DNA from: an uncultured Actinomycetota bacterium
GTDB lineage: Bacteria; Actinomycetota; Actinomycetes; S36-B12
Length of the DNA: 64,000 bases
Assembly: GCA_963749905.1 (NCBI GenBank)
Contig: CAVVOF010000006.1
Span: 208,162 to 272,161, forward strand
Direction: 5' to 3'
Part shown: positions 1 to 59,806 of the stretch, piece after piece
Layout: each line of letters begins with the position of its first letter
Position numbering within the stretch: position 1 is the first letter of the stretch
The notes under the pieces: model-generated
The model's database searches: none
Seen by the model: the letters and a program-made list of their open reading frames with translations, nothing else
Told to the model about the DNA's origin: nothing
Made by a program: the position numbers and the translations under genes

Positions 1-1977
1 GAGCACGGCGGAGATGTCCTCGAAGTTGTCCGGCTGCATCGAGCGCAGCAGCGCCCGCATCGGCCCGCCGTCGAGCTGGAACACGCCGAGGGTGTCGCCG
101 CGGGTCAGCAGCTCGTACGTCGGGCGGTCGTCGAGGGTGAGGTCCTCGAGCACGATGGTCTCGCCGCGGTTGGAGTCGATGTGCCGCAGGCAGTCGTCGA
201 GGACGGTCAGGTTGCGCAGGCCGAGGAAGTCCATCTTCAGCAGGCCGAGGGACTCGCAGGCGCCCATGTCGAACTGGGTGATGACCGCGCCGTCCTGCTC
301 GCGCCGCCAGACGGGGATCACGTCGAGGAGCGGCTCACGGCACAGGATGACGCCGGCCGCGTGCACGCCGGGCTGGCGCTTCAGGCCCTCGAGCCCCTTG
401 GCGGTGTCGACCACCTTCTTCGCGTCGGGGTCGGAGTCGTACAGCGCGCGGAACTCCGCGGCCTCGCCGTAGCGTGAGCTGGTCGGGTCGAACGCCCCCG
501 AGAGCGAGACGTCCTTGCCCATCACGGCCGGCGGCATGGCCTTGGTGATCCGGTCGCCGAGGGCGTACGGGTAGCCGAGGACGCGGGCGCTGTCCTTGAC
601 CGCCGCCTTCGCCTTGATCGACCCGTAGGTGATGATCTGCGCAACCCGCTCCTCGCCGTACTTCTCGGTCGCGTAGCGGATCATGTCGCCGCGCCGACGC
701 TCGTCGAAGTCCATGTCGATGTCGGGCATCGAGACGCGCTCGGGATTCAGGAAGCGCTCGAACAGCAGGCCGTGCTTCATCGGGTCGAGCTCGGTGATGC
801 CCAGGGCGTACGCGATCATCGCGCCGGCCGCGGACCCACGACCGGGACCGACCCGGATGCCGTTCTCCTTGGCGTGGCGGACGAGGTCGGCCGTGACGAG
901 GAAGTAGCCCGGGAAGCCCATCTGGATGATGACTCCGACCTCGTACTCGGCCTGCGTGCGGACGGCGTCCGGCACAGCGCCCTTGTAGCGATGGAGCAGG
1001 CCGCGTTCGACCTCCTTGACCAGCCAGGACTCCTCCGACTCACCGGCCGGCACCGGGAACTGCGGCATCAGGTTGGCGCCCTCGGCGAACTCGACCTCGC
1101 ACCGCTCGGCGATGAGCAGCGTGTTCGAGCAGGCCTCGGGCAGCTCGGCCCACACCCGGCGCATCTCGTCGGCCGACTTGACGTAGAAGTCGCGGGCATC
1201 GAACCGGAACCGCTTGGGGTCGTCCATCGTGGTCCGGGTGCCGATGCACAGCAGCACGTCATGGGTGTCGGCGTCGTCGGCGTGCACGTAGTGCAGGTCG
1301 TTGGTGGCCACCAGCGGGAGGTCGAGCTGCTTGGCGATGCGCAGCAGGTCCTCGCGGAAGCGCCGTTCGATGGCCAGCCCGTGGTCCATGAGCTCGACGA
1401 AGTAGTTGCCCTGGCCGAGAATGTCGCGGAAGTCGGCCGCCGCCGCGAGGGCGCGGTCGTACTTGCCGGCCTGCAGCCAGCGGTTCACCTCGCCGCTCGG
1501 GCAGCCGGTGGTGCCGATCAGTCCGGACCCGTAGCGCTCGAGCAGTTCACGGTCGAATCGCGGCTTGAAGTAGTAGCCCTCGAGGCTCGACAGTGAGGAC
1601 AGTCGGAACAGGTTGTGCATGCCGACCGTGTTCTCGGCCCACAGCGTCATGTGGGTGTAGCTCTGCTTGCCGCGACCGGCGCTCGCCTCGTCCGGGGTGC
1701 CTTCGTCGAAGCCGCCGCCGAAGTCGAACGGCCGGCGCTCGAAGCGGCCCTGAGGGGCGTAGTAGCCCTCGAGGCCGATGATCGGCTTGATGCCGTTGGC
1801 GCGGGCCTTGGTGTAGAAGTCGTACGCCCCGTAGAGGTTTCCGTGGTCGGTCATCGCCATGGCCGGCATGCCCAGCCGCTGCGCCTCCTCGAACAGGTCG
1901 GGCAGGCGGGCCGCACCGTCCAGCATCGAGTACTCGGTGTGCACATGGAGGTGCACGAACTGGTCGGACGGGGGCAC
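1..1977 (-). CDS. dnaE: DNA polymerase III alpha subunit (DnaE1), first ~659 codons; gene continues beyond window start
   Basis: Absent from ORF track because it has no in-window stop. My minus-strand translation from GTG at 1977 reads VPPSDQFVHLHVHTEYSMLDG (PHP domain), GPGRGSAAGAMIAYALGITELDP, PDIDMDFDERRRGDMIRY, KRQPGVHAAGVIL and KMDFLGLRNLTV, uninterrupted to position 1. An alternative GTG lies at 1986. Confidence 0.93.
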   Translation of the reverse strand, partial: MPPSDQFVHLHVHTEYSMLDGAARLPDLFEEAQRLGMPAMAMTDHGNLYGAYDFYTKARANGIKPIIGLEGYYAPQGRFERRPFDFGGGFDEGTPDEASAGRGKQSYTHMTLWAENTVGMHNLFRLSSLSSLEGYYFKPRFDRELLERYGSGLIGTTGCPSGEVNRWLQAGKYDRALAAAADFRDILGQGNYFVELMDHGLAIERRFREDLLRIAKQLDLPLVATNDLHYVHADDADTHDVLLCIGTRTTMDDPKRFRFDARDFYVKSADEMRRVWAELPEACSNTLLIAERCEVEFAEGANLMPQFPVPAGESEESWLVKEVERGLLHRYKGAVPDAVRTQAEYEVGVIIQMGFPGYFLVTADLVRHAKENGIRVGPGRGSAAGAMIAYALGITELDPMKHGLLFERFLNPERVSMPDIDMDFDERRRGDMIRYATEKYGEERVAQIITYGSIKAKAAVKDSARVLGYPYALGDRITKAMPPAVMGKDVSLSGAFDPTSSRYGEAAEFRALYDSDPDAKKVVDTAKGLEGLKRQPGVHAAGVILCREPLLDVIPVWRREQDGAVITQFDMGACESLGLLKMDFLGLRNLTVLDDCLRHIDSNRGETIVLEDLTLDDRPTYELLTRGDTLGVFQLDGGPMRALLRSMQPDNFEDISAVL

Positions 1978-2066
1978 GAGCCCCACCCTAGCCAGCGCAG
2001 GTGACGGCCGGGACCGACCACGCCGAGGATCGCCGGCGCGTCCGCAGACCGGCCGTCAGCGGGGGG

Positions 2067-2993
2067 TCAACTGCCGCCGCGGAGCAGGTCCAGGGCCCGC
2101 TGGAGGTCGGGTGGGTAGTCGCTCTCGAGGCAGATCCGCTCCCCGGTCGCCGGGTGCTCGAAGCACAGGCGCACCGCGTGCAACCACTGTCTCGTCAGTC
2201 CCACCCGCTTCGCCAGCACCGGATCCGCGCCGTAGGTCAGGTCGCCCACGCACGGATGCCGCAGGGCGGCCATGTGCACCCGGATCTGGTGCGTGCGCCC
2301 AGTCTCGAGGTGCACCTCGAGCAGCGAGGCGTGCGGGAAGGCCTCGAGGGTGTCGTAGTGGGTCACGGACGGCTTGCCCCCGCTGACCACCGCCCACTTG
2401 TAGTCGTGCTGGGGGTGCCGGTCGATCGGGGCGTCGATCGTGCCACTGAGCGGATCGCAGTGCCCCTGGACGACTGCGTGGTACACCTTGTCGACCGTGC
2501 GCTCCTTGAACTGCCGCTTCAGGCTGGTGTAGGCGCGCTCGCTCTTGGCCACCGCCATCACGCCCGACGTGCCGACGTCCAGCCGATGCACGATGCCCTG
2601 CCGCTCGGCCGCGCCGGAGGTGCTCACCCGATAGCCGGCCGCCGCCAGCCCCCCGACCACGGTGGGGCCGGACCAGCCCGGGCTCGGATGGGCGGCCACG
2701 CCGACCGGCTTGTCGACGACCACCACGTCGTCGTCGTCGAGGAGGATCCGCATGCCCGGCACCGGCTCGGGCGGTCCCTGCGGCTCGGCAGCCGGCTCGC
2801 GCAGGTCGACCGTCAGCAGCGAACCGGGCACCAGGCGGTCGGACTTGGTGCCGGGAACCCCGTCGACCAGCACCGCCCCGTCCGCGACCAGGTCGGCCGC
2901 GCGCGAGCGGGACAGGCCGAGCATCCGGGTGAGGGCGACGTCCAGCCGTTCCCCGGCGAGGCCGTCGGGAACGGGGAGCAGGCGCTCACTCAT
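2067..2993 (-). CDS. rluD: RluA/RluD-family 23S rRNA pseudouridine synthase
   Basis: C-terminal 308 aa of ORF 2067..3296, starting [11 protein letters not shown]. It has an S4-like N-terminus and the motifs [15 protein letters not shown] and [11 protein letters not shown]. It lies downstream of lspA, as in other actinobacteria. Confidence 0.9.
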
Positions 2994-3001
2994 GCGTGCG
3001 C

Positions 3002-3562
3002 TCAGCTCCGGGCACCGGTGATCTCGATCCCGCGTAGAGCCAGCACGACCATCAGCACCGCCGAGCAGGTGATGAACATGTCGGCGACGTTGAAGACGGC
3101 GAAGTTCGGCAGCTGGATGAAGTCCACGACGTAGCCCAAGCCGAAGCTGGGGGGCCGGGTCAGGCGATCGATCAGGTTGCCGAGCAGGCCGCCCAGCAGG
3201 CCGCCGAGGGCGACTGCCCACCACATGCTGCCGAGGCGCCGGGAGGTGCGCAGGATGATGATCGTGACGACGACGGCCACGATGGAGAAGATCCACGTGT
3301 AGCCGGCGCCGATGGAGAAGGCGGCGCCGGTGTTCTCCACGTAGGTGAACTTGAGCAGGCCGCCCAGCAGCACGATGGGGCCCTCGCCGGACTCGATGCG
3401 GGGCTTCAACTCCGCGACGACCCAGGCCTTGGTCAGCCGATCGAGGAGGACGGCGCCGACCGCCACGCCGGCCAGCGTCCAGAGGCAGGTGCGCCGCCGG
3501 GCTCGGTCCACCGTCTCCGGAACCGGGACCTCGTCGGCCACCATGGGATCCGGAGCAGTCAC
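3002..3562 (-). CDS. lspA: Lipoprotein signal peptidase II
   Basis: ORF 3002..3562. Motifs [12 protein letters not shown] and [20 protein letters not shown] plus four hydrophobic segments. Its stop is 9 nt before the rluD start. Confidence 0.92.
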
Positions 3563-3592
3563 CGCCTCACCCTACTCAACGCACCGGCGTGG

Positions 3593-3660
3593 CCCCGTCG
3601 AGCGTGGAGCTCAGGCGCCCTGTCCCGGCGGGTCGCGCCTGAGCGCCACGCTCGACGGGG
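3593..3660. repeat. Type-A palindromic hairpin repeat, copy 1
   Basis: Left arm ccccgtcgagcgtggagctcaggcgc (3593-3618), 16-nt loop, right arm gcgcctgagcgccacgctcgacgggg (3635-3660). One arm mismatch. Intergenic, between the DksA-like stop and the lspA start. Confidence 0.85.
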
Positions 3661-3670
3661 TGACGGACTG

Positions 3671-4509
3671 CTAGTAGCGCTCCTCCGCCTGCTTGCAGGC
3701 CAGGCACAGCGTTGCCCGCGGGAACGCCTGCAGCCGGTACTTGCCGATCGGCCGTCCGCAGGACTCGCAGATCCCGTACGTGCCCTCCTCGATGCGCTGC
3801 AGCGCGTGCTGGACCTGCTCCATCATGTCCCGCGCGTTGTTCGCCAGGGACATCTCGTGCTCGCGCTCGAAGGTCTTGCTGCCGGCATCGGCCTGGTCGT
3901 CGCCGGCGCCGTCGCCGGAATCCCGGATGAGGTCGGCCAGGCCCTCCTCCGCGGCGGAGACCTCCTCCTGGAGGCGGATCAGGTCCGCGTTGAGCTCGGC
4001 TCGGACGGCCGCGCGCTCCTTGGCCGTCCACGGTGACTCGTCCTCGCGCACCGCCAACCGAGGCCGGGGCGCGGCAACCCGCTTGATCGTCGCCTTCTTC
4101 GCCGGCGCAGCCTTCTTCGCCGGCGCAGCCTTCTTGACCGGTGCGGCCTTCTTCGCGGCGCAGCCTTCTTCGCCGGCGCGGCCTTCTTCACGGGAGCCTT
4201 CTTGACCGGTGCGGCCTTCTTCGCCGGCGCGGCCTTCTTCGCGGGCGCGGCCTTCTTCGCGGGCGCGGCCTTCTTCGCGGGCGCGGCCTTCTTCGCGGGC
4301 GCGGCCTTCTTCGCGGGCGCGGCCTTCTTCGCCGGCGCAGCCTTCTTCGCCGGCGCGGCCTTCTTCACCGGAGCCTTCTTCGCGGGAGCCTTCTTGACCG
4401 GCGCAGCCTTCTTCGCCGGAGCGGCCTTCTTCACCGGAGCCTTCTTCGCGGGTGCGGGCTTCTTCGCCGGAGCTGCCTTCTTGGCCGCCGGCCGAGCAGA
4501 CCTCGCCAT
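3671..4509 (-). CDS. Histone-H1-like (AAPAKK repeat) N-terminus fused to a DksA/TraR C4 zinc-finger domain (Streptomyces DdbA-like); reading frame broken by a 1-nt deletion near 4156
   Basis: ORF 3979..4509 begins MARSARPAAKKAAPAKK and carries the repeats. ORF 3671..4675 ends with KKAAPAKKATIKR, FEREHEMSLANNARDMMEQVQHALQRIEEGTYGICESCGRPIGKYRLQAFPRATLCLACKQ. The two frames join where cttcgccggcg has become cttcgcggcg (4151-4160). Confidence 0.8.
4090..4490 (-). repeat. In-frame 18-nt tandem repeat encoding (A/P)AKKAA units
   Basis: About 20 units. Five identical consecutive 18-mers gcggccttcttcgcgggc occupy 4229-4318, flanked by near-identical variants. Confidence 0.85.
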
Positions 4510-4656
4510 GAGTTCCCCTGTTCCTCGTGGACCCTCCGGTCCCGAATGCGGAATGTCCGCAGCAGGCTAGGCCCATGCCGCCCCGAGCCCGGGGAGCCGC
4601 GCCGATATCCTGACCATTCGCGTGATCGACGCACCCCGAACCCTGATGGAGGACGC

Positions 4657-7797
<3,141 letters not shown>

Positions 7798-7812
7798 CCT
7801 GACGGGCGTCGA

Positions 7813-8277
7813 CTACTCGGCGTCGATCAGCCGACGCTGGTCGTCGAGCATCGCGCGCACCGACGCCCGGATGGCGTCCGCCCGAGCCTGCGCGTACCGG
7901 ACGATCTCGTCGGCCGTGCGCTGGGCGAGCGCGAGCACCGCCTCGGCATCGGGGTTCTCCGACACCTGGGCGATCAGCTCTGCCGGGATCACCGGCTCGG
8001 TAGCGGCTACCGCGACCGCGCCCCGGGTGGCGGTGGCCAGCTGCTCCTGCAGCTCGGCCATCCGCTGCTCGGCGCCGACCAGGCGGGCCTGCAACTGGTC
8101 GCACTGCGTGCGCAGGACCGCCTCGCCGTCACGGGACCGCTGGAGTTCGTCGGCGTACTGCGCCACATCCGCCTCGAGGATGTCGAGGAACGCGTCGACC
8201 TCGTCCATGTCGTAGCCCGCGCGCATGCGCGTCGTCCCGAACTGCATGGCACGCACCTCGGCGGCGGTGATGGGCAT
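7813..8277 (-). CDS. divIVA: DivIVA/Wag31-family cell-pole protein
   Basis: MPITAAEVRAMQFGTTRMRAGYDMDEVDAFLD is the typical DivIVA N-terminus, followed by coiled coil. ATG at 8277 is preceded by ggagga. It is the last gene of the dcw-ylm cluster. Confidence 0.88.
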   Translation of the reverse strand: MPITAAEVRAMQFGTTRMRAGYDMDEVDAFLDILEADVAQYADELQRSRDGEAVLRTQCDQLQARLVGAEQRMAELQEQLATATRGAVAVAATEPVIPAELIAQVSENPDAEAVLALAQRTADEIVRYAQARADAIRASVRAMLDDQRRLIDAE

Positions 8278-8305
8278 CGGTCCTCCCGGACGTCGGATCG
8301 TGCGA

Positions 8306-8602
8306 TCAGGTGGTGGCCGCCAGCGTACGAGCAATCCCCATCAGGATGTTCGTGCCGATGAACAGGATGAGGAAGGCGAGGTCCAGCTGCACCTGGCCGA
8401 GTCGCAGGGGCGGGACGACGCGGCGGATCCACCGCAGGGGCGGGTCGGTCACCGTGTAGATCAGCTCGAGCACGATGAGGAGCGGACCCCGCGGACGCCA
8501 GTCCCGGGCGAAGGCCTGCACGAGGTCGAACACCAGGCGCGCCAGCAGCAGGATCCAGAAGACGAACAGCAGCGCAGCTATCGCCTCGAAGACGAGTGAC
8601 AT
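8306..8602 (-). CDS. YggT-family membrane protein
   Basis: 98 aa with two to three TM segments. It holds the conserved position between sepF and divIVA. Confidence 0.85.
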   Translation of the reverse strand: MSLVFEAIAALLFVFWILLLARLVFDLVQAFARDWRPRGPLLIVLELIYTVTDPPLRWIRRVVPPLRLGQVQLDLAFLILFIGTNILMGIARTLAATT

Positions 8603-8671
8603 GTACGCGTTCTCCCCTGCGGTGCTCTGCTCGGTTGGTTGCTCGACGCCCGGCCGCGGCCGACGGGTCGA

Positions 8672-9262
8672 TCAGCTCTGGTTGAAGAAGCCATCCTTGG
8701 CGATCTGGGCCCGGGCCTCGTCGCCCACGTCGACGTTGACCGGCGAGAGCAGGAACACCTTGTTGGTGATGCGCTCGATGGACCCGCGCAGCCCGAAGAC
8801 CAGGCCGGCGGCGAAGTCGATGATGCGCTTGGCATCCGCGTCCTCGAGTTCGGACAGGTTCATGATCACCGGCACGCCCTCGCGGTACTGCTCGCCGATG
8901 CGACGGGCATCGTTGTAGCTGCGCGGATGGATCGTCTCGATCCTCGACAGGTCGGGAGCCGGCGCGTACGTCGGGCGGCGGTCGGCTAGCGGAGCGGCGG
9001 TGGGACGCGACGGCGGGGCGGCATCCGCTCGGAAGGTGCGCACGGCCCGGGTATCCGGGATCGGCTTCACGCTTCGACTGGTGTAGCGGTCGTCGTACTC
9101 CGGCTCGTAGCCCTGCTCATAGCCGCGGCCCGCGGATCCGCGACTGTCGCGCGAGGAACTGCGCCGTGGCGCGTCGTACTCATCGAAGTCGTCGTAGGCC
9201 TCGTCACCGTGGTCCTCGACGAGACCCAGGTACACGGCCATCTTGCGCATCGCGCCAGCCAT
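8672..9262 (-). CDS. sepF: Cell division protein SepF
   Basis: [18 protein letters not shown]-terminus and the C-terminal domain [49 protein letters not shown]. Confidence 0.92.
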
Positions 9263-9315
9263 GCCATCCTCCCTGTACGACGCATGCGGCGAGACCGCAT
9301 GTGATTGTGTTGACG

Positions 9316-10041
9316 TTACTGCACGTACGTCCGGTCGCCGAGTATCGCTCCCCCGATGCGCACCTGTGTCGCGCCCTCGGCGATGGCCTCCTCGAGGTCG
9401 CCGCTCATCCCCGCGGAGATCACGTCCGCACCCGGATGTTCTCGTCTCAAGGAGTCAGCGACCGCCCGCAGGCGGGCGAACGCGGCCCGTGGCCCACCCG
9501 GAGCAGGCGGATAGGGCGCGACTCCCATCACGCCCCGGAGCCGTAGCGACGACTGGCCCGCGACGATTTCGGCCAACGCCGGCACGTCGTCCGGCGAGGA
9601 CCCGCCGCGATCGGGACGCGGATCGGGATCCAGGTCGACCTGGAGCAGCACGTCGAGCACTCGCTCCCGGCCGGTCGCGGCGCGGGCGAGGGCCAGTGCG
9701 AGCTCGGGACGATCCACGGACTCGACGATGTCTGCCCATCGGACGACCGACGCGGCCTTGTTGCGCTGCAGCTGGCCGATCATGTGCCACCGCAGCCGCT
9801 CGCCGCCGGCGGCGCAGGCCAGCCGCTTGGCGCGTGCCTCCTGGTCACGGTTCTCGCCGACGTCGCCGACCCCTAGGCCGGCCAGGATGTCCACGTCGGT
9901 CGCGGGGAAGGTCTTCGTCACCACGACGAGGGTCACCCCGTCGGCACGGCCGGCCGCCCGTCGGGCGCCCTCGATCCGGGCCGACACCTGCGCCAGTCCC
10001 GCGGCGATCTGCGCCGTTCGTTCGTCGACGTGCTCGGTCAC
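9316..10041 (-). CDS. YggS/YlmE-family PLP-binding protein
   Basis: GTG at 10041 inside ORF 9316..10308. Motifs [28 protein letters not shown] and [10 protein letters not shown]. Confidence 0.88.
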
Positions 10042-10796
10042 GAAGCCATCCTCGCGATGACGATGCCCTGACGCCCGGTGAGCCGGTCCCGCCGGTATGA
10101 GAACAGGCCGGGATCCTCGGCCGTGCAGCCTGCTGCGACGAGGACAGCGTCGGAAGGGACGCCCGCCTCGGCCAGGCGGGCGATCACGCCACGCGAGACG
10201 TCGATGCCCGGCTGGCCGTCGGCGCACGACACGACGGCCGTCCGAGCCACAGCCGGCGAGCAGCGCGCCTCGATCTCCCTTGCGCGCTCGGGCGGCACCG
10301 GGTAGCACTGCCCGCAGATGGCGCCCCCGAGAACGGCATGGTCCACCCCGCTGCCCTGGTCCGACATCGCCGCGACCAGCGCCCCGACCACGTCCGCGGC
10401 CAGCCCGCGCCAGCCGCAGTGCGCGACACCCACGGTCGCGCCGTCGGACCCGACGAGCGCCAACGGGACGCAGTCCGCACCGAGCGCAGCCAGCGCGAGT
10501 CCGGGCGTGCGCGTCACCAGGGCATCCACGCCGGCGACCACTCCGGGCCGGTCGACGAGGGCGACGTCGGCGCCGTGGACGGCGTCCATCACCGCCAGTC
10601 CAGCGGCGGCCACCCAGCCGGACGCGACGGCCCGGTTGTGCGCGACCGCCTCGTCGTCATCGCCCACGTAGCCGGCGAGGTTCAGTGATGCGTACGACGC
10701 CTGGCTGCTTCCGCCCCAACGACCAGTGGCCGCCCATCGTGCCGGGCGGCCACCAGTGCTGCGGGGGTCGAGGACCCCAGCGGCGATCGAGAACAT
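10038..10796 (-). CDS. pgeF: YlmD/PgeF laccase-domain (purine nucleoside phosphorylase-like) protein
   Basis: C-terminal 252 aa of ORF 10038..11975, from MFSIAAG. Motifs SLNLAGYVGDD, ADCVPL, HCGWRG and the C-terminal FSYRRD. Confidence 0.85.
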   Translation of the reverse strand: MFSIAAGVLDPRSTGGRPARWAATGRWGGSSQASYASLNLAGYVGDDDEAVAHNRAVASGWVAAAGLAVMDAVHGADVALVDRPGVVAGVDALVTRTPGLALAALGADCVPLALVGSDGATVGVAHCGWRGLAADVVGALVAAMSDQGSGVDHAVLGGAICGQCYPVPPERAREIEARCSPAVARTAVVSCADGQPGIDVSRGVIARLAEAGVPSDAVLVAAGCTAEDPGLFSYRRDRLTGRQGIVIARMAS

Positions 10797-10813
10797 CGCG
10801 TCGATCCGCCGCC

Positions 10814-11929
10814 TTACTTGAGGAAGTCGGGGATGTCGAGATCGTCGTCCGAGTCGTCGAACACGATGGTCCGCGGCTGGGACAGGCTCCGCGCCCCCGG
10901 CGCCACGACAGCCGGGACCTCGCCGGTGTCGCCACCGTCGCGCAGGCGGGCGGTCTGCCCGCCGCTCTTCTTCGCCGGCGGCTCCCCGCCGTCGAACCCC
11001 GCGGCGATGACGGTGACGCGCACCTCGTCTCCGAGGGTGTCGTCGATGACCGCGCCGAAGATGATGTTGGCGTCCGGATGGGCCGCGTCGGCCACGAGGC
11101 GCGCGGCCTCGTTGATCTCGAAGAGCCCGAGGTCGCTGCCGCCGGAGATGGACAGCAGCACGCCGTGCGCACCGTCGATACCGGCCTCCAGCAGTGGGCT
11201 GGAGATCGCCTTCTCGGCCGCCTCGACCGCACGGTCCTCGCCCCGCGCGGACCCGATGCCCATCAGGGCAGAGCCGGCGGAGTGCATGACGCTCTTCACG
11301 TCGGCGAAGTCGAGGTTGATCAGGCCGGGAGTGGTGATCAGGTCGGTGATGCCCGAGACGCCCTGGAGCAGCACGTGATCGGCCTGCCGGAACGCGTCGA
11401 TGACGCTGATGTTCCGATCGGCAAGCGAGAGCAGTCGATCGTTCGGGATGACGATGAGAGTGTCGACCTCGGCGCGCAGCGCGTCGACGCCGGCCTCGGC
11501 CTGCGCCTGCCGGCGACGGCCCTCGAAGCCGAACGGCCGGGTCACCACGCCGATGGTGAGCGCGCCGAGGGACCGGGCCACCCGAGCCACGACGGGTGCG
11601 CCGCCGGTGCCGGTGCCGCCACCCTCGCCCGCGGTGACGAAGACCATGTCGGCCCCCTTGAGGACCTCCTCGATCTCCTCCATGTGGTCCTCGGCCGCCT
11701 TGCGGCCGACCTCGGGGTTGGCGCCTGCGCCGAGGCCCCGCGTCAGTTCGCGGCCGATGTCGAGCTTCACGTCGGCGTCGCTCATGAGCAGCGCCTGCGC
11801 GTCGGTGTTGATGGCGATGAACTCGACGCCCTTCAGGCCGACCTCGATCATGCGGTTGACCGCATTCACGCCACCGCCGCCGATGCCGACGACCTTGATC
11901 ACTGCCAGGTAGTTCTGCGGAGCCGCCAC
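10814..11929 (-). CDS. ftsZ: Cell division GTPase FtsZ
   Basis: [37 protein letters not shown] and the C-terminal [10 protein letters not shown]. Confidence 0.98.
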
Positions 11930-12110
11930 GGCTGCCCGTCCTTTCCTCCGGTGCCGCCGGGACTCCTCCCGGCAACGTCTGCGACCAGACCCTTAACCTC
12001 TACTTGAGGCTAAGATTTCGACCCGGCCTTGGCCGGCGGGAGGTTAGGCCTTTTCTTCCCTGTTGCGCAAGGTGAGGGTGGGACCAAAGTCTCAACTACT
12101 ACTTGAGACC

Positions 12111-12182
12111 GATCCCGTCGAGCGTGGAGCTGAGGCGCGAAACGCCGAAGGCGAGCGCCTCAGCTCCACGCTCGACGGGATC
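12111..12182. repeat. Type-A palindromic hairpin repeat, copy 2 (perfect 28-nt arms)
   Basis: gatcccgtcgagcgtggagctgaggcgc (12111-12138), 16-nt loop gaaacgccgaaggcga, gcgcctcagctccacgctcgacgggatc (12155-12182). It ends 2 nt from the ftsQ stop codon. Confidence 0.88.
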
Positions 12183-12184
12183 GG

Positions 12185-12965
12185 TCAGCGGGATCGGAAC
12201 GTGGTCGGCATCTCGGGTGCCGACACGTCGTACAGGTCGGCGCGGCGCCGGCTGTCCAGCAGCACCCGGAGCACCTCCGCCTTGAACTCGGGCTGCTCCG
12301 CACTCCCCCAGCGCACCTGGTCCCCCGACCGCAGGCGCAGCAGGACGTCATCGCGAGTGGTCGCCTCCGCCGACACCACTCGGCGGGACAGGTCGGCGGG
12401 CAGGCTGTCCAGCACCGCCATCGTCTCCGCCAGCGCCGCCCCGGACGCCGTGACCCGGGGCAGGCCCTTGGGCAGGGCGCCGAGCGGCTCGAACACCACG
12501 CCCTCCGCATCGACGGCCCGACGCACCGCCGGTGCCACCGCTGCGCCGGCGAACGACGAGCCGGCGGTCGACGGGGCACCGGTGGAGATCACGATGGCCA
12601 CCGGCACGCGTTCCGTGACTGCGACGACGATCTCCGACGGCCAGCCGCGCCGCACCTCGACACTCGACACCCACGGCAGCTCGCGGACGGACTCCTCGGC
12701 GCGCTGCGTGTCGATGCGGGCCAGCGGCTGGCCCAGCGGCACCGCAGCAGCGGCCAGCACCGCGTCGGCGCGGGCACCCTCGATGCCGACGACGCGGACG
12801 TCCTGCGCAGCCAGCAGCGACGAGAACCAGACGGCCCACACCGCTGCGGCGACCAGGGCGGCCACCAGCAGCACGAGCCAGCACGCGGATCAGCCTGCGG
12901 TACGAGCGGCGGGGCGCGGCGAGCGCGCGAGCGGGGGCCGGGCGGTCGACGGTCGGCGCGCTCAT
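12185..12965 (-). CDS. ftsQ: Cell division protein FtsQ (POTRA); apparent frameshift near 12877
   Basis: The N-terminus [13 protein letters not shown]...YRRLIRVLA sits in one frame (ATG 12965, ATGA overlap with the murC stop). The TM and POTRA body VLLVAALVAAAVWAVWFSS...VRVVGIEGA sits in ORF 12185..12874. Confidence 0.85.
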
Positions 12966-14397
12966 GAGCCGCCCTCCCGCGCCCGCAGCAGATCGAGCAC
13001 CTCCGGGCCGATCATGCCGATGTCGCCCGCACCCAGCGTCATGATGATGTCGCCGGGTCGAGCGCGCTCGACCAGATGGCCGGCGACGGCCGACCACGAG
13101 GGCTCGAACACCACCTGCTCAGGCGGCAGCGGGACGTTGGCGGCCATCGTCTGGCCGCTGGCACCCGGGATCGCCGTCTCGCCCGGTGCGAAGACCTCCA
13201 GCACCACGACCTCGTCGGCCAGTCCCAATGCCGCGCCGAACTCCTGCAGAGAACAGCGCCGTCCGGTAGTAGTGATGCGCCTGGAAGGCCGCCACGATGC
13301 GCCCCTCGCCGACGACGTCTCGGGCGGCGAGCAGCGTGGCCTCGATCTCCGTCGGATGGTGGGCGTAGTCGTCGAAGACTCGGATGCCGCCCACCTGGCC
13401 CTTGAAGTCGAAGCGACGACGGGTCCCGCTGAACGAGCCGAGCCCGGCTCGCAGGTCACGTCGCCGGGTAGTCGAGGCCGAGGCCGGTGACGAAGGCGCC
13501 CAGAGCGTTCAGCGCGTTGTGCCGGCCCGGCACCTGCAGAGCGATCTCGCCGAGCCGCACACCGTTGTGCACGGTGTCGAACACCCAGCCCAGGGGCGCG
13601 GCATCCTCCGCCGTGCCGCCTCCGCCGCCGATCCGCGCATCGGTGAGCCGGTAGTCGGCCTCGTGCGACTCCCCATACGTACGCACGTCGACGCCGGCCT
13701 CCATGGCCCGCTGCGCGAGCCGCGCGCCCCCACGATCATCGACGCAGACGACGATGAATCCGTCGCGATCGCGGATGCCGGTCGCGAAGTCCAGGAAGGC
13801 CTGCTCGATCGCCTCGAAGGTGCCCCAGTGATCGAGGTGGTCCGGCTCGACGTTGGTGACGACGGCCGCCACCGGCTCGAGGACGAGGAAGGCGCCGTCG
13901 CTCTCATCCGCCTCCACCACGAAGATGTCGCCGGATCCGAGGTGCGCGTTCGACCCGGACTCGTTGAGCTCGCTGCCGATGGCGAACGACGGGTCGGCGC
14001 CGCAGTGCTGGAGCGCGACGGTCAGCATCGACGTGGTGGTCGTCTTGCCGTGGGTGCCGGCGACGGCCACTCCCCTGCTGCCGGCCATCACCAGGGCGAG
14101 GGCGTCGGCTCGGCTGAGTTCCGGCAGTCCACGCTCCCGGGCCGCTGCCCGCTCGACGTTGGACTCGGGGATGGCGGTGGATACCACGATCGCGTCGACC
14201 GTCTCGATCATCGCGGGGTCATGGCCGACCCGCGCGTCGACCCCGACGGCCCGCAGCGCCTGCAGCCGTCGGGAGTCCTTGGCATCCGTGCCCGAGACCG
14301 TCAGCCCCTGGGCAACCATGATCCGGGCGATCCCGGACATGCCCGCCCCGCCGATGCCCACGATGTGCACGCGACCGAGGTCCTGCGACGCCGTCAC
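12962..14397 (-). CDS. murC: UDP-N-acetylmuramate--L-alanine ligase; two apparent frameshifts (~13458, ~13250)
   Basis: [15 protein letters not shown] and [11 protein letters not shown] in ORF 13456..14397. [16 protein letters not shown] in ORF 13119..13394. The C-terminus [15 protein letters not shown] is in ORF 12962..13459. Confidence 0.92.
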
Positions 14398-15467
14398 CTT
14401 CCACCTCCGGTAGCTGCCTCGATGACGACGCGCGCCATCTGCTCATCGGCATCCCGCACTCCGTGGCGGCTGGCCGCCGCCCCCATGGCGGAGAGCCTGT
14501 CGCCATCGTGCAGGACGGAGGCGCTCGTTCGTGTGAGCCACTCCGCGGTCAGGTCGGCATCGTCGATGATCAGTCCGCCGCCGGCCCGCACGACCGGCAG
14601 GGCGTTGAGCCGCTGCTCGCCGTTGCCGATGGGCAGCGGCACGTAGATCGCGGGCAGGCCGACGGCCGCGAGCTCGGCGCAGGTCATGGCACCGGCCCTG
14701 GTCACCGCGAGGTCGGCGGCCGCGTACGCGAGGTCCATCCGGTCGATGAACGGGACCGGGACGTACCCGGGCGACGCCGCCGGGACCTCGTTGCGGGCGC
14801 CGAAGGCATGCAGGATCTCGATGCCGTCCGTCTCGAGCGCGACGCGGGACGCCGCCACCACCTCGTTCAGCCGCTGGGCGCCCTGGGACCCGCCGAAGAC
14901 CAGCAGCACCGGTGCAGCGGGATCCAGCCCGAAGAACTCCCGGGCCTGGTCACGAGTCCCGCCGCGGTCCAGGGTCGCGATGGCATGTCGCAGCGGCAGT
15001 GCCATCCGACGTGCCCCGCGGAGCACCTGCGGATCCGTCGCGTAGACGTGCGGCGTGAAGCGGGCGGCCAGCTTGTTCGCCAGCCCCGCCCGGGCGTTCG
15101 CCTCATGGACGACGAGCGGCGTACGCGTGCGGCGGGCAGCCAGGTAGGCGGGCACCGCCGCGTAGCCGCCGAAGCCCACCACGACGTCGGCCCGCCGGCT
15201 CTGGATCACGTCCGCGGCCTGGGCCACCGCGCGGCGCAGACGCGGTCCGAGCCGGAGCAGATCGGCTCCCGGTCGCCGGGGCATCGGCACCGCGGGCACC
15301 GTGACCAGGTCGTAGCCCCGGGCCGGCACGAGCGTGGTCTCCAATCCGCGGTCGCTGCCGATGACCGTGATCGTCACGTCCGGGTCCTGACGCCTCAGGG
15401 CGTCACCGACGTTGAGGGCGGGCTCGATATGGCCACCCGTGCCGCCCGCAGCGAGGATGACGTGCAC
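14394..15467 (-). CDS. murG: Lipid II glycosyltransferase MurG
   Basis: VHVILAAGGTGGHIEPAL follows GTG at 15467, directly after the ftsW stop. Also LVFGGSQGA and TRAGAMTCAELAAVGLPAIYVPLP. Confidence 0.93.
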   Translation of the reverse strand: MHVILAAGGTGGHIEPALNVGDALRRQDPDVTITVIGSDRGLETTLVPARGYDLVTVPAVPMPRRPGADLLRLGPRLRRAVAQAADVIQSRRADVVVGFGGYAAVPAYLAARRTRTPLVVHEANARAGLANKLAARFTPHVYATDPQVLRGARRMALPLRHAIATLDRGGTRDQAREFFGLDPAAPVLLVFGGSQGAQRLNEVVAASRVALETDGIEILHAFGARNEVPAASPGYVPVPFIDRMDLAYAAADLAVTRAGAMTCAELAAVGLPAIYVPLPIGNGEQRLNALPVVRAGGGLIIDDADLTAEWLTRTSASVLHDGDRLSAMGAAASRHGVRDADEQMARVVIEAATGGGR

Positions 15468-15468
15468 C

Positions 15469-16677
15469 TCAGCGCCGTCGCAGTGCTTCTGCGGTGCTCC
15501 GGCGGCGAAGGGCGCGCCGAGCATCCGGCTCAGCCTTGGCGAAGGCCATCAGCATGCCCAGCGCCACCAGGGTCGGGATCAGCGACGAGCCGCCGTAGGA
15601 GACCAACGGCAGCGGCACACCGGTCACCGGCAGCAGGCCGAGCACGCCGCCGATGTTGATGACGGCCTGGACGACGATCCAGGAGCCGACGCCGGCCGCG
15701 GCCAGCCGTACGAACGGGTCCCGGGTGTTCCGCGACAGGCGGAAGATGGCGAAGGCCAGCAGCCCGAACATCGCGAGCACGGCGAGCGTCCCGGCCAGTC
15801 CGAGCTCCTCGCCGATCACCGGGAAGATGAAGTCGGTGTGCGCCTCGGGCAGGGAGCCCCACTTCTCCCGGCTCGCGCCGAGGCCCACGCCCCAGAACCC
15901 ACCGGTGCCGAGGGCGTACTGGCCCTGGCTGACCTGCCACCCGAAGCCGAGCCGATCCGCATCCGGGTCCAGCCACGACGTGAATCTCTGCATCCGATAC
16001 GGCGCGGCCAGGGTGAGCAGCAGGATGCCGAGCAGCCCGGCGCCGCCCAGGGCCGCGAACAGCCGCATGGGCGCGCCGGCCGCGAAGAGGATGCCGCCGG
16101 TGATGGCCGCGAGCATCAGGGTGTTGCCGAAGTCGCCCTCGAGCAGGACCAGCGCCATCATCAGTGCCGCGACCGGCAGCAGCGGGAACAGCAGGGTCCG
16201 CCAGGAGTCGAGCCGCTGGTCGCGACGGGAGAGCAGGTTCGCGCCCCACACGACGAGGGCGATCTTGGCGAACTCGGATGGCTGCAGGCGGAACGGCCCG
16301 ATGATCTCGATCCAGTTGCGCTGCCCAGCCACCTCGACGCCGATCACCAGGACGGCCACGAGCAGGACGAACGCGATCGCCATCAGCACCCATGCGAACC
16401 CCCGCCAGAACTGCACGGAGGTGCGCGACACCAGGATCATCGCCACCACGCCGATCACGGCGAACATCAGCTGGCGCTGGGCGAGCGTGTAGGCGGAGCC
16501 GAACACGCGGAAGCTCTCGATGCTCGAGGCGGACAGCACCATGATCAGCCCGAGCACGAGGAGCAGCAGGGTGGTGCCGAGCAGCAGGTAGTACGTGCTC
16601 AGCGGATGGTTGAGCAGGAAGGCCAGCCGGCCCGGCTTCCTGGCGGCGGCGCTCGGCGCCGCCTTCGTGTCGGTCAT
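15469..16677 (-). CDS. ftsW: SEDS-family peptidoglycan glycosyltransferase FtsW
   Basis: ATG 16677 (MTDTKAAP) forms an ATGA overlap with the murD stop. Motifs LQPSEFAKIAL and LPLVSYGGSS, polytopic. Confidence 0.93.
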   Translation of the reverse strand: MTDTKAAPSAAARKPGRLAFLLNHPLSTYYLLLGTTLLLLVLGLIMVLSASSIESFRVFGSAYTLAQRQLMFAVIGVVAMILVSRTSVQFWRGFAWVLMAIAFVLLVAVLVIGVEVAGQRNWIEIIGPFRLQPSEFAKIALVVWGANLLSRRDQRLDSWRTLLFPLLPVAALMMALVLLEGDFGNTLMLAAITGGILFAAGAPMRLFAALGGAGLLGILLLTLAAPYRMQRFTSWLDPDADRLGFGWQVSQGQYALGTGGFWGVGLGASREKWGSLPEAHTDFIFPVIGEELGLAGTLAVLAMFGLLAFAIFRLSRNTRDPFVRLAAAGVGSWIVVQAVINIGGVLGLLPVTGVPLPLVSYGGSSLIPTLVALGMLMAFAKAEPDARRALRRRSTAEALRRR

Positions 16678-18152
16678 GGGGTGCCGTCCAGAGCGGGGAC
16701 GAAGCCCGGCAGCGTCGCCACCGCGTCGGCGAACTGCCGACCCCGATCCGAGTAGTCGCGGAACATGTCCCACGACGCGCACCCCGGCGCTAGGAGAACG
16801 GTGTCCCCCGGCTCGGCGAGCGACGCGGCGTGCTGGACCACCTCGGCCATGGCCCCAGTCTCACGGGTCTCGACGACGATGACGGGGACATCCGGAGCGT
16901 GTCGGGCCAGTGCTTCGGCGATGGCGCCACGATCGACGCCGAGCAGGACCACGCCCCGCAGGCGGTCCCGCGCGGCCACCACCAACGCGTCGAAATCCTG
17001 CCCCTTCGCCATCCCGCCGGCGATCCACACGACCGGCCGATAGGCGGACAGCGACGTCTGTGCGGCATGGGTGTTGGTGGCCTTCGAATCGTCGACGTAG
17101 GTCACGTCTCGGGCCACCCCGACACGTGAGATCCGGTGATCAGCCGGCTCGAATGAGCGCAGACCGTCCCGCACGGCGACGGGCGGCACGCCGAAGGCGC
17201 GGGCCAGGGCCGCCGCGGCAAGCGCATTGGCCACGTTGTGCGGCGCGGCCGGTCGAACGTCGGCGACGGACGCGAGCTCCTGGGCCCGCTCAGCCCGATC
17301 CTCGACGAAGGCACGATCCACCAGGAGGTCGTCGACGACGCCGAGCATCGACAGTCCGGGTGTGCCGAGGGTGAAGCCAATCGCCCGGCACCCTTCGACG
17401 ACATCGGCTTCCTCCACCATGCGGAGGGTCGTCACGTCCTCGACGTTGTAGACAGCCGCATCCTGGACTCGCTCGTAGATCCGCGACTTCACGCGTACGT
17501 ACTCGGCCATCGACCCGAAGTGGTCGAGGTGATCATCGGCGATGTTGAGGCAGACCGCGGCGACCGGACTGATCGAGTGCACGAACGGCAGCTGCGGCGC
17601 ACCCACCTCGATGGCGATCACCTCGAGGTCGTCGTGCATGACCGCGTCGACCAGCGAGGACCCGATATTGCCGGCGGCCGCGGTCCGGTACCCGGCCGCC
17701 CGCAGCATGGACTCGAGCATCAAGGTGGCGGTCGTCTTCCCATTGGTGCCGGTGATGCACAGCCACGCCGCGGCCCTCTCGGGATCACGCAGTCGCCAGG
17801 CCAGCTCGAGCTCGCCCCACACCGGGATGCCGCGCTCGAGCGCATCGAGGATGACCGGGTCGGCCGGACGCAGTCCCGGCGACACCACCAGGAGGTCGGT
17901 CCCCTCCGGCACGCCGCCGGCGTGGCCGAGCAGGGTGCGGACCCCGATCACGTCGAGGATGTCCGCCCGCTCGCGCTGCCGCTCGCCGTCCGCGGCGTCG
18001 ATGACCGTGACCCGGGCGCCGAGCTGGGCCAGGGCGTCGGCGCACGCGAAGCCCGCCACGCCGATGCCGGCGACGACGACCGACCACTCGCTCCAGTCGG
18101 ATCCCCGGTGCAGGGCGTCCGGATCCCTGGCGGCGCCGGGTTCAGGGGTCAC
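16674..18152 (-). CDS. murD: UDP-N-acetylmuramoylalanine--D-glutamate ligase
   Basis: Lower 492 aa of the artefactual 847-aa ORF 16674..19217. GTG 18152 forms a GTGA overlap with the mraY stop. Motifs ITGTNGKTTAT and DDSKATN. Confidence 0.93.
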   Translation of the reverse strand: MTPEPGAARDPDALHRGSDWSEWSVVVAGIGVAGFACADALAQLGARVTVIDAADGERQRERADILDVIGVRTLLGHAGGVPEGTDLLVVSPGLRPADPVILDALERGIPVWGELELAWRLRDPERAAAWLCITGTNGKTTATLMLESMLRAAGYRTAAAGNIGSSLVDAVMHDDLEVIAIEVGAPQLPFVHSISPVAAVCLNIADDHLDHFGSMAEYVRVKSRIYERVQDAAVYNVEDVTTLRMVEEADVVEGCRAIGFTLGTPGLSMLGVVDDLLVDRAFVEDRAERAQELASVADVRPAAPHNVANALAAAALARAFGVPPVAVRDGLRSFEPADHRISRVGVARDVTYVDDSKATNTHAAQTSLSAYRPVVWIAGGMAKGQDFDALVVAARDRLRGVVLLGVDRGAIAEALARHAPDVPVIVVETRETGAMAEVVQHAASLAEPGDTVLLAPGCASWDMFRDYSDRGRQFADAVATLPGFVPALDGTP

Positions 18153-26674: not shown

Positions 26675-26746
26675 CCCCGTCCGTCTTGAGGTTGGTGGTC
26701 GGATTTCGGGCAGCAGGCGACCACCAACCTCAAGACGGACGAGGGG
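26675..26746. repeat. Type-B palindromic hairpin repeat, copy 1
   Basis: Left arm cccccgtccgtcttgaggttggtggtcg, 16-nt loop gatttcgggcagcagg (26702-26717), right arm cgaccaccaacctcaagacggacgagggg. It begins 15 nt downstream of the sigma-gene stop. Confidence 0.82.
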
Positions 26747-27854: not shown

Positions 27855-27925
27855 CCCCCGTCTGTCTTGAGGTTGGCGGTCGCCTTTGGCCCGGTTTCCG
27901 ACCGCCAACCTCAAGACAGACGGGG
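27855..27925. repeat. Type-B palindromic hairpin repeat, copy 2
   Basis: Left arm cccccgtctgtcttgaggttggcggtcg, 16-nt loop cctttggcccggtttc (27883-27898), right arm cgaccgccaacctcaagacagacgggg. It lies in the divergent spacer between the DUF2892 and DUF3048 genes. Confidence 0.82.
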
Positions 27926-31191: not shown

Positions 31192-31340
31192 GGTCGCGAG
31201 CCTGCCCGGTCCGTCTGACATTGCGCGGATTCGGCACGCGGACACGCATCGCTGAGGGCCGCATGGCAGACTCGATTGCCCACTTGCCGGGCGTGGCCTC
31301 GACCGCGCCCGGCTGCCGACGAAGCGGAAGGGAAGGGTGC

Positions 31341-33425: not shown

Positions 33426-33491
33426 CCCGTCGAGCGTGGCGATCAGGCGCGACTCGCCGACGCGGAGCGCCTGAACTCCACGCTCGACGGG
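33425..33491. repeat. Type-A palindromic hairpin repeat, copy 3 (degenerate centre)
   Basis: acccgtcgagcgtggcgatcaggcgc, 16-nt loop gactcgccgacgcgga, gcgcctgaactccacgctcgacggg. It starts at the helD-like stop codon. Confidence 0.78.
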
Positions 33492-59786: not shown

Positions 59787-59806
59787 TCAACGGCTAGCGT
59801 CCGATC

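What the first reader, a model, noticed from the sequence alone, without database searches (positions are those of the whole stretch)
3593..3660. Type-A hairpin repeat family: three copies, each abutting a stop codon
Copies lie at 3593-3660, 12111-12182 and 33425-33491. They share the arms CCCGTCGAGCGTGGAGCT-S-AGGCGC and its reverse complement (25-28 nt). Each has a 16-nt loop whose sequence is unrelated between copies.

Copy 1 has C in the left arm (agctCagg) paired with G in the right arm. Copy 2 has G paired with C. This is a compensatory double change that preserves pairing.

All three sit immediately 3' of a coding region (the DksA-like gene, ftsQ and the helD-like gene). They leave the footprint STLDG in several spurious ORFs of the track. 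I do not recognise this as a named REP/MITE family.
Basis: seen in the sequence. Interest (0 to 1): 0.6.

Follow-up and report, generated by a model that had tools for sequence, protein, structure and literature searches.

The report
Hairpin repeat family with nuclease partner
The three hairpins belong to a family of about 40 identical-length DNA palindromes that spread recently to gene ends in this actinobacterial genome, and the family has its own nuclease gene framed by two copies, much like REP/RAYT repeat systems but with an unrelated enzyme.

Summary
The three copies are real: 3594-3659, 12114-12179 and 33426-33491, each exactly 66 nt. One detail is wrong. The 16-nt loops are related: each holds a conserved 9-nt core, GACNCGCCG, in either orientation, next to a hypervariable heptamer.

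The genome holds about 40 copies. Thirty-three lie 0-22 nt after a stop codon, and the copies cluster locally. Orthologous spacers and two syntenic 21-kb regions of close relatives lack them.

There is no RAYT gene, no target-site duplication and no T-tail. Instead, an AbiEi-HTH plus Vsr/DUF559-like nuclease gene elsewhere in the genome (contig C2) is framed by two consensus copies. Its 61-62% identical orthologues sit at the same proS locus in three other lineages, framed by co-varying type-A-like hairpins.

All seven full-length paralogues in this genome are framed by a palindrome family of their own.

Best reading (0.55): a REPIN-like intragenomic repeat whose partner enzyme is this nuclease. 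Nuclease action on the repeat is inferred, not shown.

This scan noted the same gene-plus-palindrome module before, in this genome and on other DNA. I found no paper describing it.

The genome search and the look-up of sequencing runs closed mid-session. So co-occurrence across congeners and transcript 3' ends remain untested.

The parts
3594..3659 (-). Type-A hairpin copy 1 (66 nt). It lies 13 nt after the TAG of the DksA/TraR-like gene and 31 nt before the lspA start. The asymmetric core is on the minus strand.
   Evidence: RNA fold -56.8 kcal/mol, z -9.0. The site is empty in relative L079, where the stop and the lspA start are about 20 nt apart.
3626..3634 (-). Conserved core of copy 1 (GACCCGCCG on the minus strand). 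The hypervariable heptamer lies at 3619-3625.
   Evidence: oriented alignment. Divergence from consensus is 5.9% in the core and 35% in the heptamer.
12114..12179 (+). Type-A hairpin copy 2 (66 nt). It lies 5 nt after the ftsQ stop and about 184 nt upstream of ftsZ. The palindrome is extended by 7 flanking bp (12107-12186).
   Evidence: RNA fold -62.9 kcal/mol, z -10.6. Absent from the ftsQ-ftsZ spacer of relatives L079, L080 and L081 (FtsZ 95-97% identical).
12139..12147 (+). Conserved core of copy 2 (GAAACGCCG). The heptamer AAGGCGA lies at 12148-12154.
33426..33491 (+). Type-A hairpin copy 3 (66 nt). It directly abuts the TGA of the helD-like gene (31221-33425) and lies 66 nt before the next gene.
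   Evidence: RNA fold -51.6 kcal/mol, z -7.8.
33451..33459 (+). Conserved core of copy 3 (GACTCGCCG). The heptamer ACGCGGA lies at 33460-33466.

Best explanation
The type-A hairpins are dispersed copies of a 66-nt palindromic element. Each copy has a 25-nt arm, the 9-nt core GACNCGCCG, a hypervariable heptamer and the inverted arm. The element forms one unit with a single-copy gene for an AbiEi-type winged-helix protein fused to a Vsr/DUF559-like nuclease. That gene lies outside the window, at G000 contig C2:269085-270044, and is framed by two same-orientation, near-consensus copies.

Shown:
- The gene-plus-hairpin module is inherited vertically at the proS locus.
- The dispersed copies multiplied recently in this lineage.
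- They land, or survive, almost only in the first 0-22 nt after stop codons, often filling convergent-gene spacers.
- They cluster locally and sometimes carry flanking bases with them.

Inferred:
- The protein recognises the near-invariant outer arms and/or the core through its HTH domain, and nicks the extruded hairpin.
- The break is repaired by copying, which spreads and homogenises the copies. The heptamer is plausibly the cut-and-repair scar.
- On transcripts the copies fold into hairpins of -52 to -63 kcal/mol. These probably act as T-tail-less 3'-end barriers, as a by-product.
For: Family size and placement:
- About 40 copies, 37 of them exactly 66 nt.
- 33 of 40 have a strongly coding ORF ending 0-22 nt away, and 10 have one on both sides. 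The figure for random genome positions is 7.5%.
- 12 gaps between adjacent copies are under 10 kb, against 4.5 expected (no random placement of 5000 reached 12).

Recent gain:
- No full-length copy in 24 same-genus genomes.
- Relatives lack the copies at the dksA-lspA and ftsQ-ftsZ sites.
- Relatives also lack them across a syntenic 21-kb glyS region where this genome has three type-A and three other palindromes.

Partner gene:
- A 320-aa ORF lies between copies C2:268950-269015 and C2:270041-270106.
- It matches PF13338 AbiEi_4 at 34.9 bits against a cut-off of 25.
- Homologues carry PF04480 (DUF559) and PF18741.
- A profile built from homologues hits the DUF559 structure 3hrl at E 0.014.
- The AF2 model has pLDDT 88.9, and its N-terminal part matches AbiEi 6y8q at E 5e-5.
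- Candidate catalytic-site residues D244, E257, D259 and H264 and the HDRRRQN motif are invariant or nearly so.

Specificity: all 7 full-length paralogues in this genome are framed on both sides by their own palindrome family. Six of these families have a constant core length; F9 is a shorter, roughly 30-nt palindrome.

Co-evolution:
- Orthologues 61-62% identical sit at the same proS | gene | GNAT locus in three lineages and are framed by type-A-like hairpins.
- Those hairpins are 80-91% identical to the consensus, with compensated arm changes and an intact core. ProS in the same lineages is only 82-85% identical at protein level.

Distant homologues in Oerskovia paurometabola and Micromonospora pattaloongensis are also framed by a repeat.

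Divergence gradient within the element: outer arms 0.8%, inner arms 8.4%, core 5.9%, heptamer 35%.
Against: - No enzymatic activity, cut site or transposition intermediate is known for this protein family.
- The own protein reaches only 18 bits on PF18741 (cut-off 38) and has no direct PDB sequence hit.
- About 150 kb held from relatives shows no dispersed copies, including the lineages that have the gene and its two flanking hairpins. So having the gene does not by itself mean having a spread family.
- An earlier scan check on other DNA reported that a pre-set co-occurrence test went against the repeat following the gene (note under e1-2329229).
- One of three distant homologues, in Spinactinospora, has no flanking repeat.
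- Families F7 and F8 have no partner gene.
- Stop-codon adjacency could reflect selection on where insertions are tolerated rather than targeting.
Confidence: 0.55

Rival explanations
1. Solo-end remnants. The mobile unit is the whole cassette (hairpin, nuclease gene, hairpin), acting like a homing-endonuclease gene. The 66-nt solo copies are what is left after recombination between the two direct flanking hairpins deletes the gene, as with solo LTRs.
For: The two flanking copies are in direct orientation and nearly identical. Solo copies have sharp, constant boundaries. The C-terminal domain is distantly like the homing endonuclease I-Bth0305I, 3r3p, at E 0.21.
Against: Each family has exactly one gene copy against 7-52 solo hairpins. 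Nuclease A has stayed at the same proS locus in four lineages. No site was seen with a full cassette in one genome and a solo copy in another. The model does not explain the hypervariable heptamer.
Confidence: 0.15
2. Host-serving terminator or mRNA-stabiliser family. The hairpins are kept because they end or protect transcripts. They were multiplied by ordinary recombination, and the nuclease genes only happen to use the same hairpins as their own insulators.
For: 33 of 40 copies sit just after stop codons, and 10 sit between convergent genes. The hairpins are very stable, with z from -8 to -11. Canonical T-tailed terminators are no more frequent than chance in the first 20 kb of the window, so another kind of 3'-end signal is plausible.
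Against: There is no T-tail. A purely structural signal would not keep the outer arms at 0.8% divergence or a conserved asymmetric core. Close relatives manage without the hairpins at the same sites. Chance cannot explain 7 of 7 paralogues each framed by a private family. Two of the three window copies sit inside apparent operons (dksA-lspA, ftsQ-ftsZ).
Confidence: 0.12
3. Binding-site regulon. The AbiEi-like HTH protein is mainly a DNA-binding regulator or roadblock protein. The dispersed palindromes are its operators, and the nuclease domain is inactive or used for something else.
For: AbiEi_4 HTH match and fold match to AbiEi and Rv2827c, which are DNA-binding proteins. The outer arms are near-invariant, as expected for a protein recognition site. 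The gene is framed by its own sites, as in autoregulation.
Against: Operators at gene 3' ends are unusual. Sites are gained in bulk in one lineage and absent in near relatives. The nuclease-domain residues are invariant across 12 homologues. Carry-over of flanking bases and local clustering point to copying events.
Confidence: 0.08
4. Classical REP/REPIN moved by a RAYT, or a MITE moved by an IS transposase that was missed or lost.
For: The element looks like a REPIN: two inverted 25-nt units with a short spacer, dispersed, extragenic and lineage-specific (definition in PMC3116915). The genome is 92% complete, so a gene could be missing.
Against: No PF01797 match in the genome, while the same search found it in 6 of 14 control genomes. 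No target-site duplication. No pair of arms at IS-like spacing. The arms are not themselves REP-like imperfect palindromes.
Confidence: 0.04

Closest known systems
REPIN-RAYT systems (REP doublets forming hairpins plus a single-copy REP-associated tyrosine transposase; PMC3116915, PMC3337134, bioRxiv 10.1101/2022.05.22.493013)
   Same: Short extragenic palindromic units of fixed architecture, with two inverted arms and a spacer. Tens of copies, with the expansion seen here limited to this lineage. A single-copy partner gene framed by its cognate repeats. Several independent repeat/gene pairs in one genome. Vertical inheritance of the partner gene at a fixed locus.
   Different: The partner is an AbiEi-HTH plus Vsr/DUF559-like PD-(D/E)xK-type nuclease, not an HUH Y1 transposase (PF01797 absent). 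The arms are not themselves imperfect palindromes with a GTAG-type head. The host is an actinobacterium. Placement is tightly stop-codon-proximal. A hypervariable heptamer sits next to a conserved core.
MITEs (for example Correia/NEMIS, RUP, Nezha)
   Same: Small non-coding dispersed elements with inverted terminal arms. Lineage-specific bursts. They can form hairpins in transcripts.
   Different: No target-site duplication. No parent IS with matching ends. Constant 66-nt length, with the whole element forming one hairpin. Some copies carry flanking bases with them.
E. coli REP/BIME elements as mRNA 3'-end stabilisers, and T-tail-less 'I-shaped' terminators proposed for high-GC actinobacteria
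   Same: Stable GC-rich hairpins immediately downstream of genes, many between convergent genes, with no T-tail.
   Different: No transcript data are available here. The sequence conservation (arms and core) goes beyond what a structural signal needs. Relatives lack the hairpins at the same sites.
AbiEi antitoxin (type IV TA, PDB 6y8q) and Rv2827c (PDB 1zel)
   Same: The N-terminal roughly 200 residues match in fold (E 5e-5 and 4e-4) and in Pfam (PF13338).
   Different: No AbiEii nucleotidyltransferase toxin gene is adjacent; the neighbours are proS and a GNAT/DUF4081 gene. The C-terminus is a DUF559-type nuclease domain.
Vsr / DUF559 endonuclease-like proteins (PDB 3hrl) and the Vsr-like homing endonuclease I-Bth0305I (PDB 3r3p)
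   Same: The C-terminal domain motifs (E-x-D-G...H...D-R-R-R) align to these. Homologues hit PF04480 and PF18741.
   Different: Only weak sequence similarity (E 0.014 and 0.21). There is no evidence of mismatch repair or intron/intein homing. Here the gene is tied to a dispersed palindrome family.

Membership tests
REPIN-RAYT system | Dispersed, mostly extragenic short palindromic repeats present in many copies | tested here: met
   About 40 copies. 33 of 40 lie within 22 nt after a stop codon.
REPIN-RAYT system | Replicative unit is two inverted repeat units plus a spacer, able to form a hairpin | tested here: met
   25-nt inverted arms with a 16-nt centre and a constant 66-nt length. 94% of arm cells are paired.
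REPIN-RAYT system | Partner gene is a RAYT (HUH Y1 transposase, PF01797) framed by the repeats | tested here: not met
   No PF01797 match in the own genome, while the same search found it in 6 of 14 control genomes. The framed gene is an AbiEi/DUF559-type nuclease.
REPIN-RAYT system | Single-copy partner gene, vertically inherited, one per repeat family | tested here: met
   There are 7 paralogues, each with a private family. Nuclease A is syntenic at the proS locus in 4 lineages.
MITE | Target-site duplication flanking the element | tested here: not met
   27 of 35 copies have no abutting direct repeat. The rest show 1-3 nt, which is at chance level.
MITE | Terminal inverted repeats shared with an autonomous IS in the genome or in relatives | tested here: not met
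   No arm pairs at IS-like spacing. The solo arms found are degenerate hairpins.
Canonical intrinsic terminator | GC-rich hairpin followed by a T-rich tail | tested here: not met
   The hairpin is present, but the flanks are G/C-rich. The terminator scan does not call either of the two copies within its 1-20,000 range.
Canonical intrinsic terminator | Transcript 3' ends map to the hairpin | not testable with these tools
DUF559 / Vsr-like nuclease (protein partner) | Match to PF04480 or PF18741 above the curated cut-off | tested here: inconclusive
   The own protein scores 18.2 bits on PF18741 against a cut-off of 38.2. Of 12 aligned homologues, 5 match PF04480 and 8 match PF18741 at E <= 0.01. 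The homologue profile hits 3hrl at E 0.014.
DUF559 / Vsr-like nuclease (protein partner) | Conserved acidic/His motif of the nuclease core | tested here: met
   D244, E257, D259, G260, H264 and D273-R276 are invariant in 12 homologues of 32-100% identity.
AbiEi antitoxin (type IV TA) | N-terminal AbiEi winged-helix domain | tested here: met
   PF13338 at 34.9 bits against a cut-off of 25. Foldseek match to 6y8q at E 5e-5.
AbiEi antitoxin (type IV TA) | Adjacent AbiEii nucleotidyltransferase toxin gene | tested here: not met
   The neighbours are proS and a GNAT/DUF4081 gene in the own genome and in three relatives.

The most novel reading that the evidence does not exclude
AbiEi-HTH/Vsr-like (DUF559-type) nucleases are the catalytic partners of REP-like palindromes in Actinobacteria. 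This would be a second, non-HUH route to REPIN-type replicators inside a genome. Each paralogue would recognise, cut and copy its own palindrome family, and the hypervariable heptamer beside the conserved core would mark the cut-and-repair site.
Probability: 0.35. Interest if true: 0.85.

Novelty: new variant of a known kind. Interest (0 to 1): 0.66.

Why it matters
Interspersed palindromes are well understood mainly in Proteobacteria, where a RAYT transposase explains them. The enzyme behind similar repeats in high-GC Gram-positive bacteria is unknown, and DUF559 is a very large family without a function.

This genome has seven nuclease paralogues, each framed by its own dispersed palindrome family. 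One module is conserved at the same locus in four lineages. That makes the link concrete and testable: it predicts a specific DNA substrate for each protein.

The family also inserts very strong hairpins into conserved operons (dksA-lspA, ftsQ-ftsZ). If the hairpins affect transcripts, they would reshape gene expression in one lineage only.

Tried and rejected
- Rfam gathering scan of the window: no match.
- RAYT/Y1 transposase search in the own genome: none.
- Exact-pattern scan of genome contigs: one hit, in an Acidobacteriaceae MAG. It is a single arm and not a hairpin, so a chance match.
- Two metagenome-contig scans. The two-armed pattern found nothing. The one-arm pattern found 60 contigs, all single-arm matches, apparently within coding sequence, with no hairpin.
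- Weak BLAST hits in ten genomes (eight same-genus, two same-order): no hairpin and no nuclease gene nearby, so chance.
- Palindromic extension of the flanks and target-site duplication: both at background for type A.
- Strand bias against GC skew: uninformative, because the skew is negative almost everywhere.
- Core orientation against the direction of the upstream gene: 13 same, 6 opposite, p = 0.17.
- Direct PDB sequence search with the own protein: no hit.
- A clean 'empty site' at the glyS convergent spacer: not obtained, because gene content downstream of glyS differs among the relatives.
So I could not search for PF04480 or for nuclease A orthologues in the 24 congeners.

Full report
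**1. The observation**

The three copies are real. Their exact limits are 3594-3659, 12114-12179 and 33426-33491. The 18-nt arm core gives 7 matches in the window at up to 3 mismatches, against 0.35 expected.

Each copy is 66 nt: a 25-nt arm, 16 central nt and the inverted arm. As RNA they fold at -51.6 to -62.9 kcal/mol, with z-scores of -7.8 to -10.6.

All three follow a stop codon:
- Copy 1 lies 13 nt after the TAG of the DksA-like gene.
- Copy 2 lies 5 nt after the ftsQ TGA.
- Copy 3 directly abuts the helD-like TGA.

One sub-claim is wrong. The loops are not unrelated. Once the copies are oriented, positions 26-34 read GACNCGCCG in 34 of 37 copies, and the other three carry the motif shifted by one base. 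Only the next seven bases are hypervariable. Copy 1 carries the core on the other strand.

**2. The family in the genome**

The window is G000:C6:208162-272161, in a 3.28-Mb, 70% G+C, 7-contig assembly that is 92% complete.

- There are about 40 copies. Thirty-seven are exactly 66 nt, and three are degenerate (63, 65 and 68 nt).
- The boundary is sharp. Complementarity of the flanking bases drops to background at once, and there is no target-site duplication.
- The flanks are G/C-rich and have no T run. The terminator scan of the first 20 kb of the window does not call the two copies there.
- Thirty-three of 40 copies have a strongly coding ORF ending 0-22 nt away, and ten have one on both sides. 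The figure for random genome positions is 7.5%.
- In same-direction gene pairs the copy hugs the upstream stop rather than the downstream start.
- Copies cluster: 12 gaps between adjacent copies are under 10 kb, against 4.5 expected (no random placement of 5000 reached 12).
- Neighbouring copies share sequence variants.
- Two pairs share 9 or 14 nt of left flank, so some copying events carried neighbouring bases along.
- Core orientation is 19 plus to 18 minus, and it is not tied to the direction of the upstream gene.

**3. Covariation and constraint**

The alignment (A1) holds 35 distinct own copies plus five hairpins from relatives.
- 94% of arm cells are paired.
- Six arm pairs show changes on both sides.
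- Twenty-seven cells over the whole structure (arms plus inner helix) are double-changed, against 9.9 +/- 2.5 in shuffles (0 of 500).

Divergence from the consensus is strongly graded:

| Region | Divergence |
|---|---|
| Outer arms | 0.8% |
| Inner arms | 8.4% |
| Core | 5.9% |
| Heptamer | 35% |

A purely structural signal would not keep the arms and an asymmetric core this constant. Compensated changes in a DNA palindrome can also arise by repair inside an extruded hairpin, so they do not prove an RNA function.

**4. Recent gain**

- A BLAST of the consensus against 24 same-genus genomes and 16 others found no full-length copy. The weak hits are chance.
- I fetched relatives through FtsZ and GlyRS homologues. 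L079, L080 and L081 (FtsZ 95-97% identical) lack the hairpin in the ftsQ-ftsZ spacer. The stop-proximal part of that spacer is unalignable, while the ftsZ-proximal part is conserved.
- L079 has only about 20 nt between the dksA-like stop and the lspA start, where this genome has 110 nt including the hairpin.
- Around glyS, 21 kb of this genome holds three type-A and three other long palindromes. The syntenic stretches of L082, L083 and L084 (GlyRS 90-94% identical) hold none of them.

**5. The partner gene**

I tested it here.

*The gene.* Two near-consensus, same-orientation type-A copies at C2:268950-269015 and C2:270041-270106 frame a 320-aa ORF.
- It has an AbiEi_4 winged-helix domain (PF13338, 34.9 bits against a cut-off of 25).
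- It has a weak REase_MTES_1575 match.
- Its homologues carry PF04480 (DUF559) and PF18741.
- A profile of 12 homologues hits the DUF559 structure 3hrl (E 0.014) and the Vsr-like homing endonuclease 3r3p (E 0.21).
- The acidic/His motif is invariant.
- An AlphaFold model (pLDDT 88.9) matches AbiEi 6y8q and Rv2827c 1zel over the N-terminal part.

*The paralogues.* A profile search over six-frame ORFs finds seven full-length paralogues in the genome. Every one is framed on both sides by a palindrome family of its own.

| Family | Element length | Copies |
|---|---|---|
| A | 66 nt | ~40 |
| F2 | 54-nt core | 52 |
| F3 | 61 nt | 11 |
| F4 | 62 nt | 26 |
| F5 | 70 nt | 7, plus 12 solo arms |
| F6 | 62-nt core | ~14; its gene is frameshifted |
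| F9 | short palindrome | ~25 |

Families A and F2-F5, where I aligned the copies, share the same build: near-invariant outer arms and a variable but still largely self-complementary inner part. Two small families, F7 and F8, have no partner gene.

**6. The module in relatives**

The closest homologues of nuclease A are 58-66% identical. Three of them have long contigs and lie at the same locus: proS, then the gene, then a GNAT/DUF4081 gene and ispG.

All three are framed on both sides by 66-nt type-A-like hairpins. The arms differ from ours by compensated changes, for example CCCGCCGAGCGTGGCACTGAGGCGC paired with GCGCCTCAGTGCCACGCTCGGCGGG. The core GCGCGACACGCCG is intact and lies on the coding strand of the gene.

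These hairpins are 80-91% identical to our consensus. ProS in the same lineages is only 82-85% identical at protein level, and the nuclease 61-62%. So the gene-plus-hairpin module is old and vertically inherited, and its hairpins are under constraint. The burst of dispersed copies is specific to this lineage.

Distant homologues in cultured Oerskovia paurometabola and Micromonospora pattaloongensis are framed in the same way. One in Spinactinospora is not.

**7. Interpretation**

Shown:
- A dispersed, recently expanded, stop-codon-proximal palindrome family.
- A cognate single-copy nuclease gene.
- Seven parallel gene/repeat pairs in one genome.
- Co-variation of the module across lineages.

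Inferred:
- The protein binds the arms or the core and nicks the hairpin.
- Repair by copying spreads and homogenises the copies.
- The heptamer is the scar of that process.
- The transcribed hairpins act as 3'-end barriers.

The logic is that of REPIN-RAYT systems (PMC3116915; abstracts), but the defining RAYT is absent. I therefore file it as working like a REPtron, not as a member of that family.

Rivals:
- Solo remnants of a mobile cassette.
- A host terminator family.
- A binding-site regulon.
- A missed RAYT or IS transposase.

**8. Prior knowledge**

Full-text searches found no paper linking DUF559 or AbiEi-type nucleases with REP-like repeats. The only trace is a table row in which 'DUF559 domain-containing protein' is enriched 14-fold among predicted inversion targets (PMC9881135). 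That fits genes framed by inverted repeats.

This scan has noted the same module many times on other DNA and twice in this genome. One later check elsewhere reported a failed co-occurrence test, which keeps my confidence in the causal step moderate.

**9. Limits**

- As a result, gene/repeat co-occurrence across congeners and transcript 3' ends are untested.
- Gene calls come from a crude GC3-based caller. Stop positions are exact, but start positions are approximate.

Noticed in passing
window 26678-26741 and 27856-27925: Two copies of a second palindrome family, F2 (core GTCTTGAGGTTGGTGGTC, 52 copies genome-wide). Its own nuclease paralogue lies at C6:564709-565887. In many F2 and F4 copies the upstream ORF ends at a TGA inside the element.
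   Followed up: partly
window 51621-51666: A 46-nt perfect palindrome, GCCTCAGACCTGTATTCGAACACCTGTTCGAATACAGGTCTGAGGC. Its centre looks like an actinobacterial LexA/SOS box (TCGAAC-N4-GTTCGA). It sits at the edge of the DnaE2/DinB cassette that another note of this scan described.
   Followed up: no
window 59764-59788: An exact solo arm of a small palindrome family, F8 (GACTGCTACGGGTTCCGTCGCAACG, about 6 hairpins genome-wide). No partner nuclease gene was found for this family.
   Followed up: partly
G000 C4:115679-115790; also right flanks of C3:58906, C3:569138, C2:384896 and window copy 1 (3660-3672): Short direct duplications of the element terminus just outside one end. Examples are GACGG repeated 2-7 nt beyond the end, and a 19-nt terminal block in tandem at C4:115679. 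They could be scars of the copying mechanism or of slippage.
   Followed up: no
G000 C2:269016-269084 and the same spacer in L014, L016, L018: A conserved TCCACAGG motif, sometimes present twice, lies between the upstream hairpin and the nuclease start codon. It could be the promoter or an autoregulatory operator of the AbiEi-like protein.
   Followed up: no
L079:9802-10000 (ftsQ-ftsZ spacer of a relative): A different perfect 13-bp-stem hairpin, GAGAGGTCCGATC-GAA-GATCGGACCTCTC, occupies this spacer in a relative that lacks type A. The stop-proximal part of the spacer turns over quickly between close relatives.
   Followed up: no
whole genome G000: At least nine palindrome families add up to roughly 190 elements in 3.28 Mb, or about one per 17 kb. 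About 150 kb held from relatives has almost none. This lineage is unusually rich in palindromes.
   Followed up: partly
G000 C3:950897-952213: The nuclease paralogue framed by two identical F6 hairpins is split over two reading frames. This is either a frameshift or an assembly error. Earlier notes on this assembly report frequent one-base errors.
   Followed up: no
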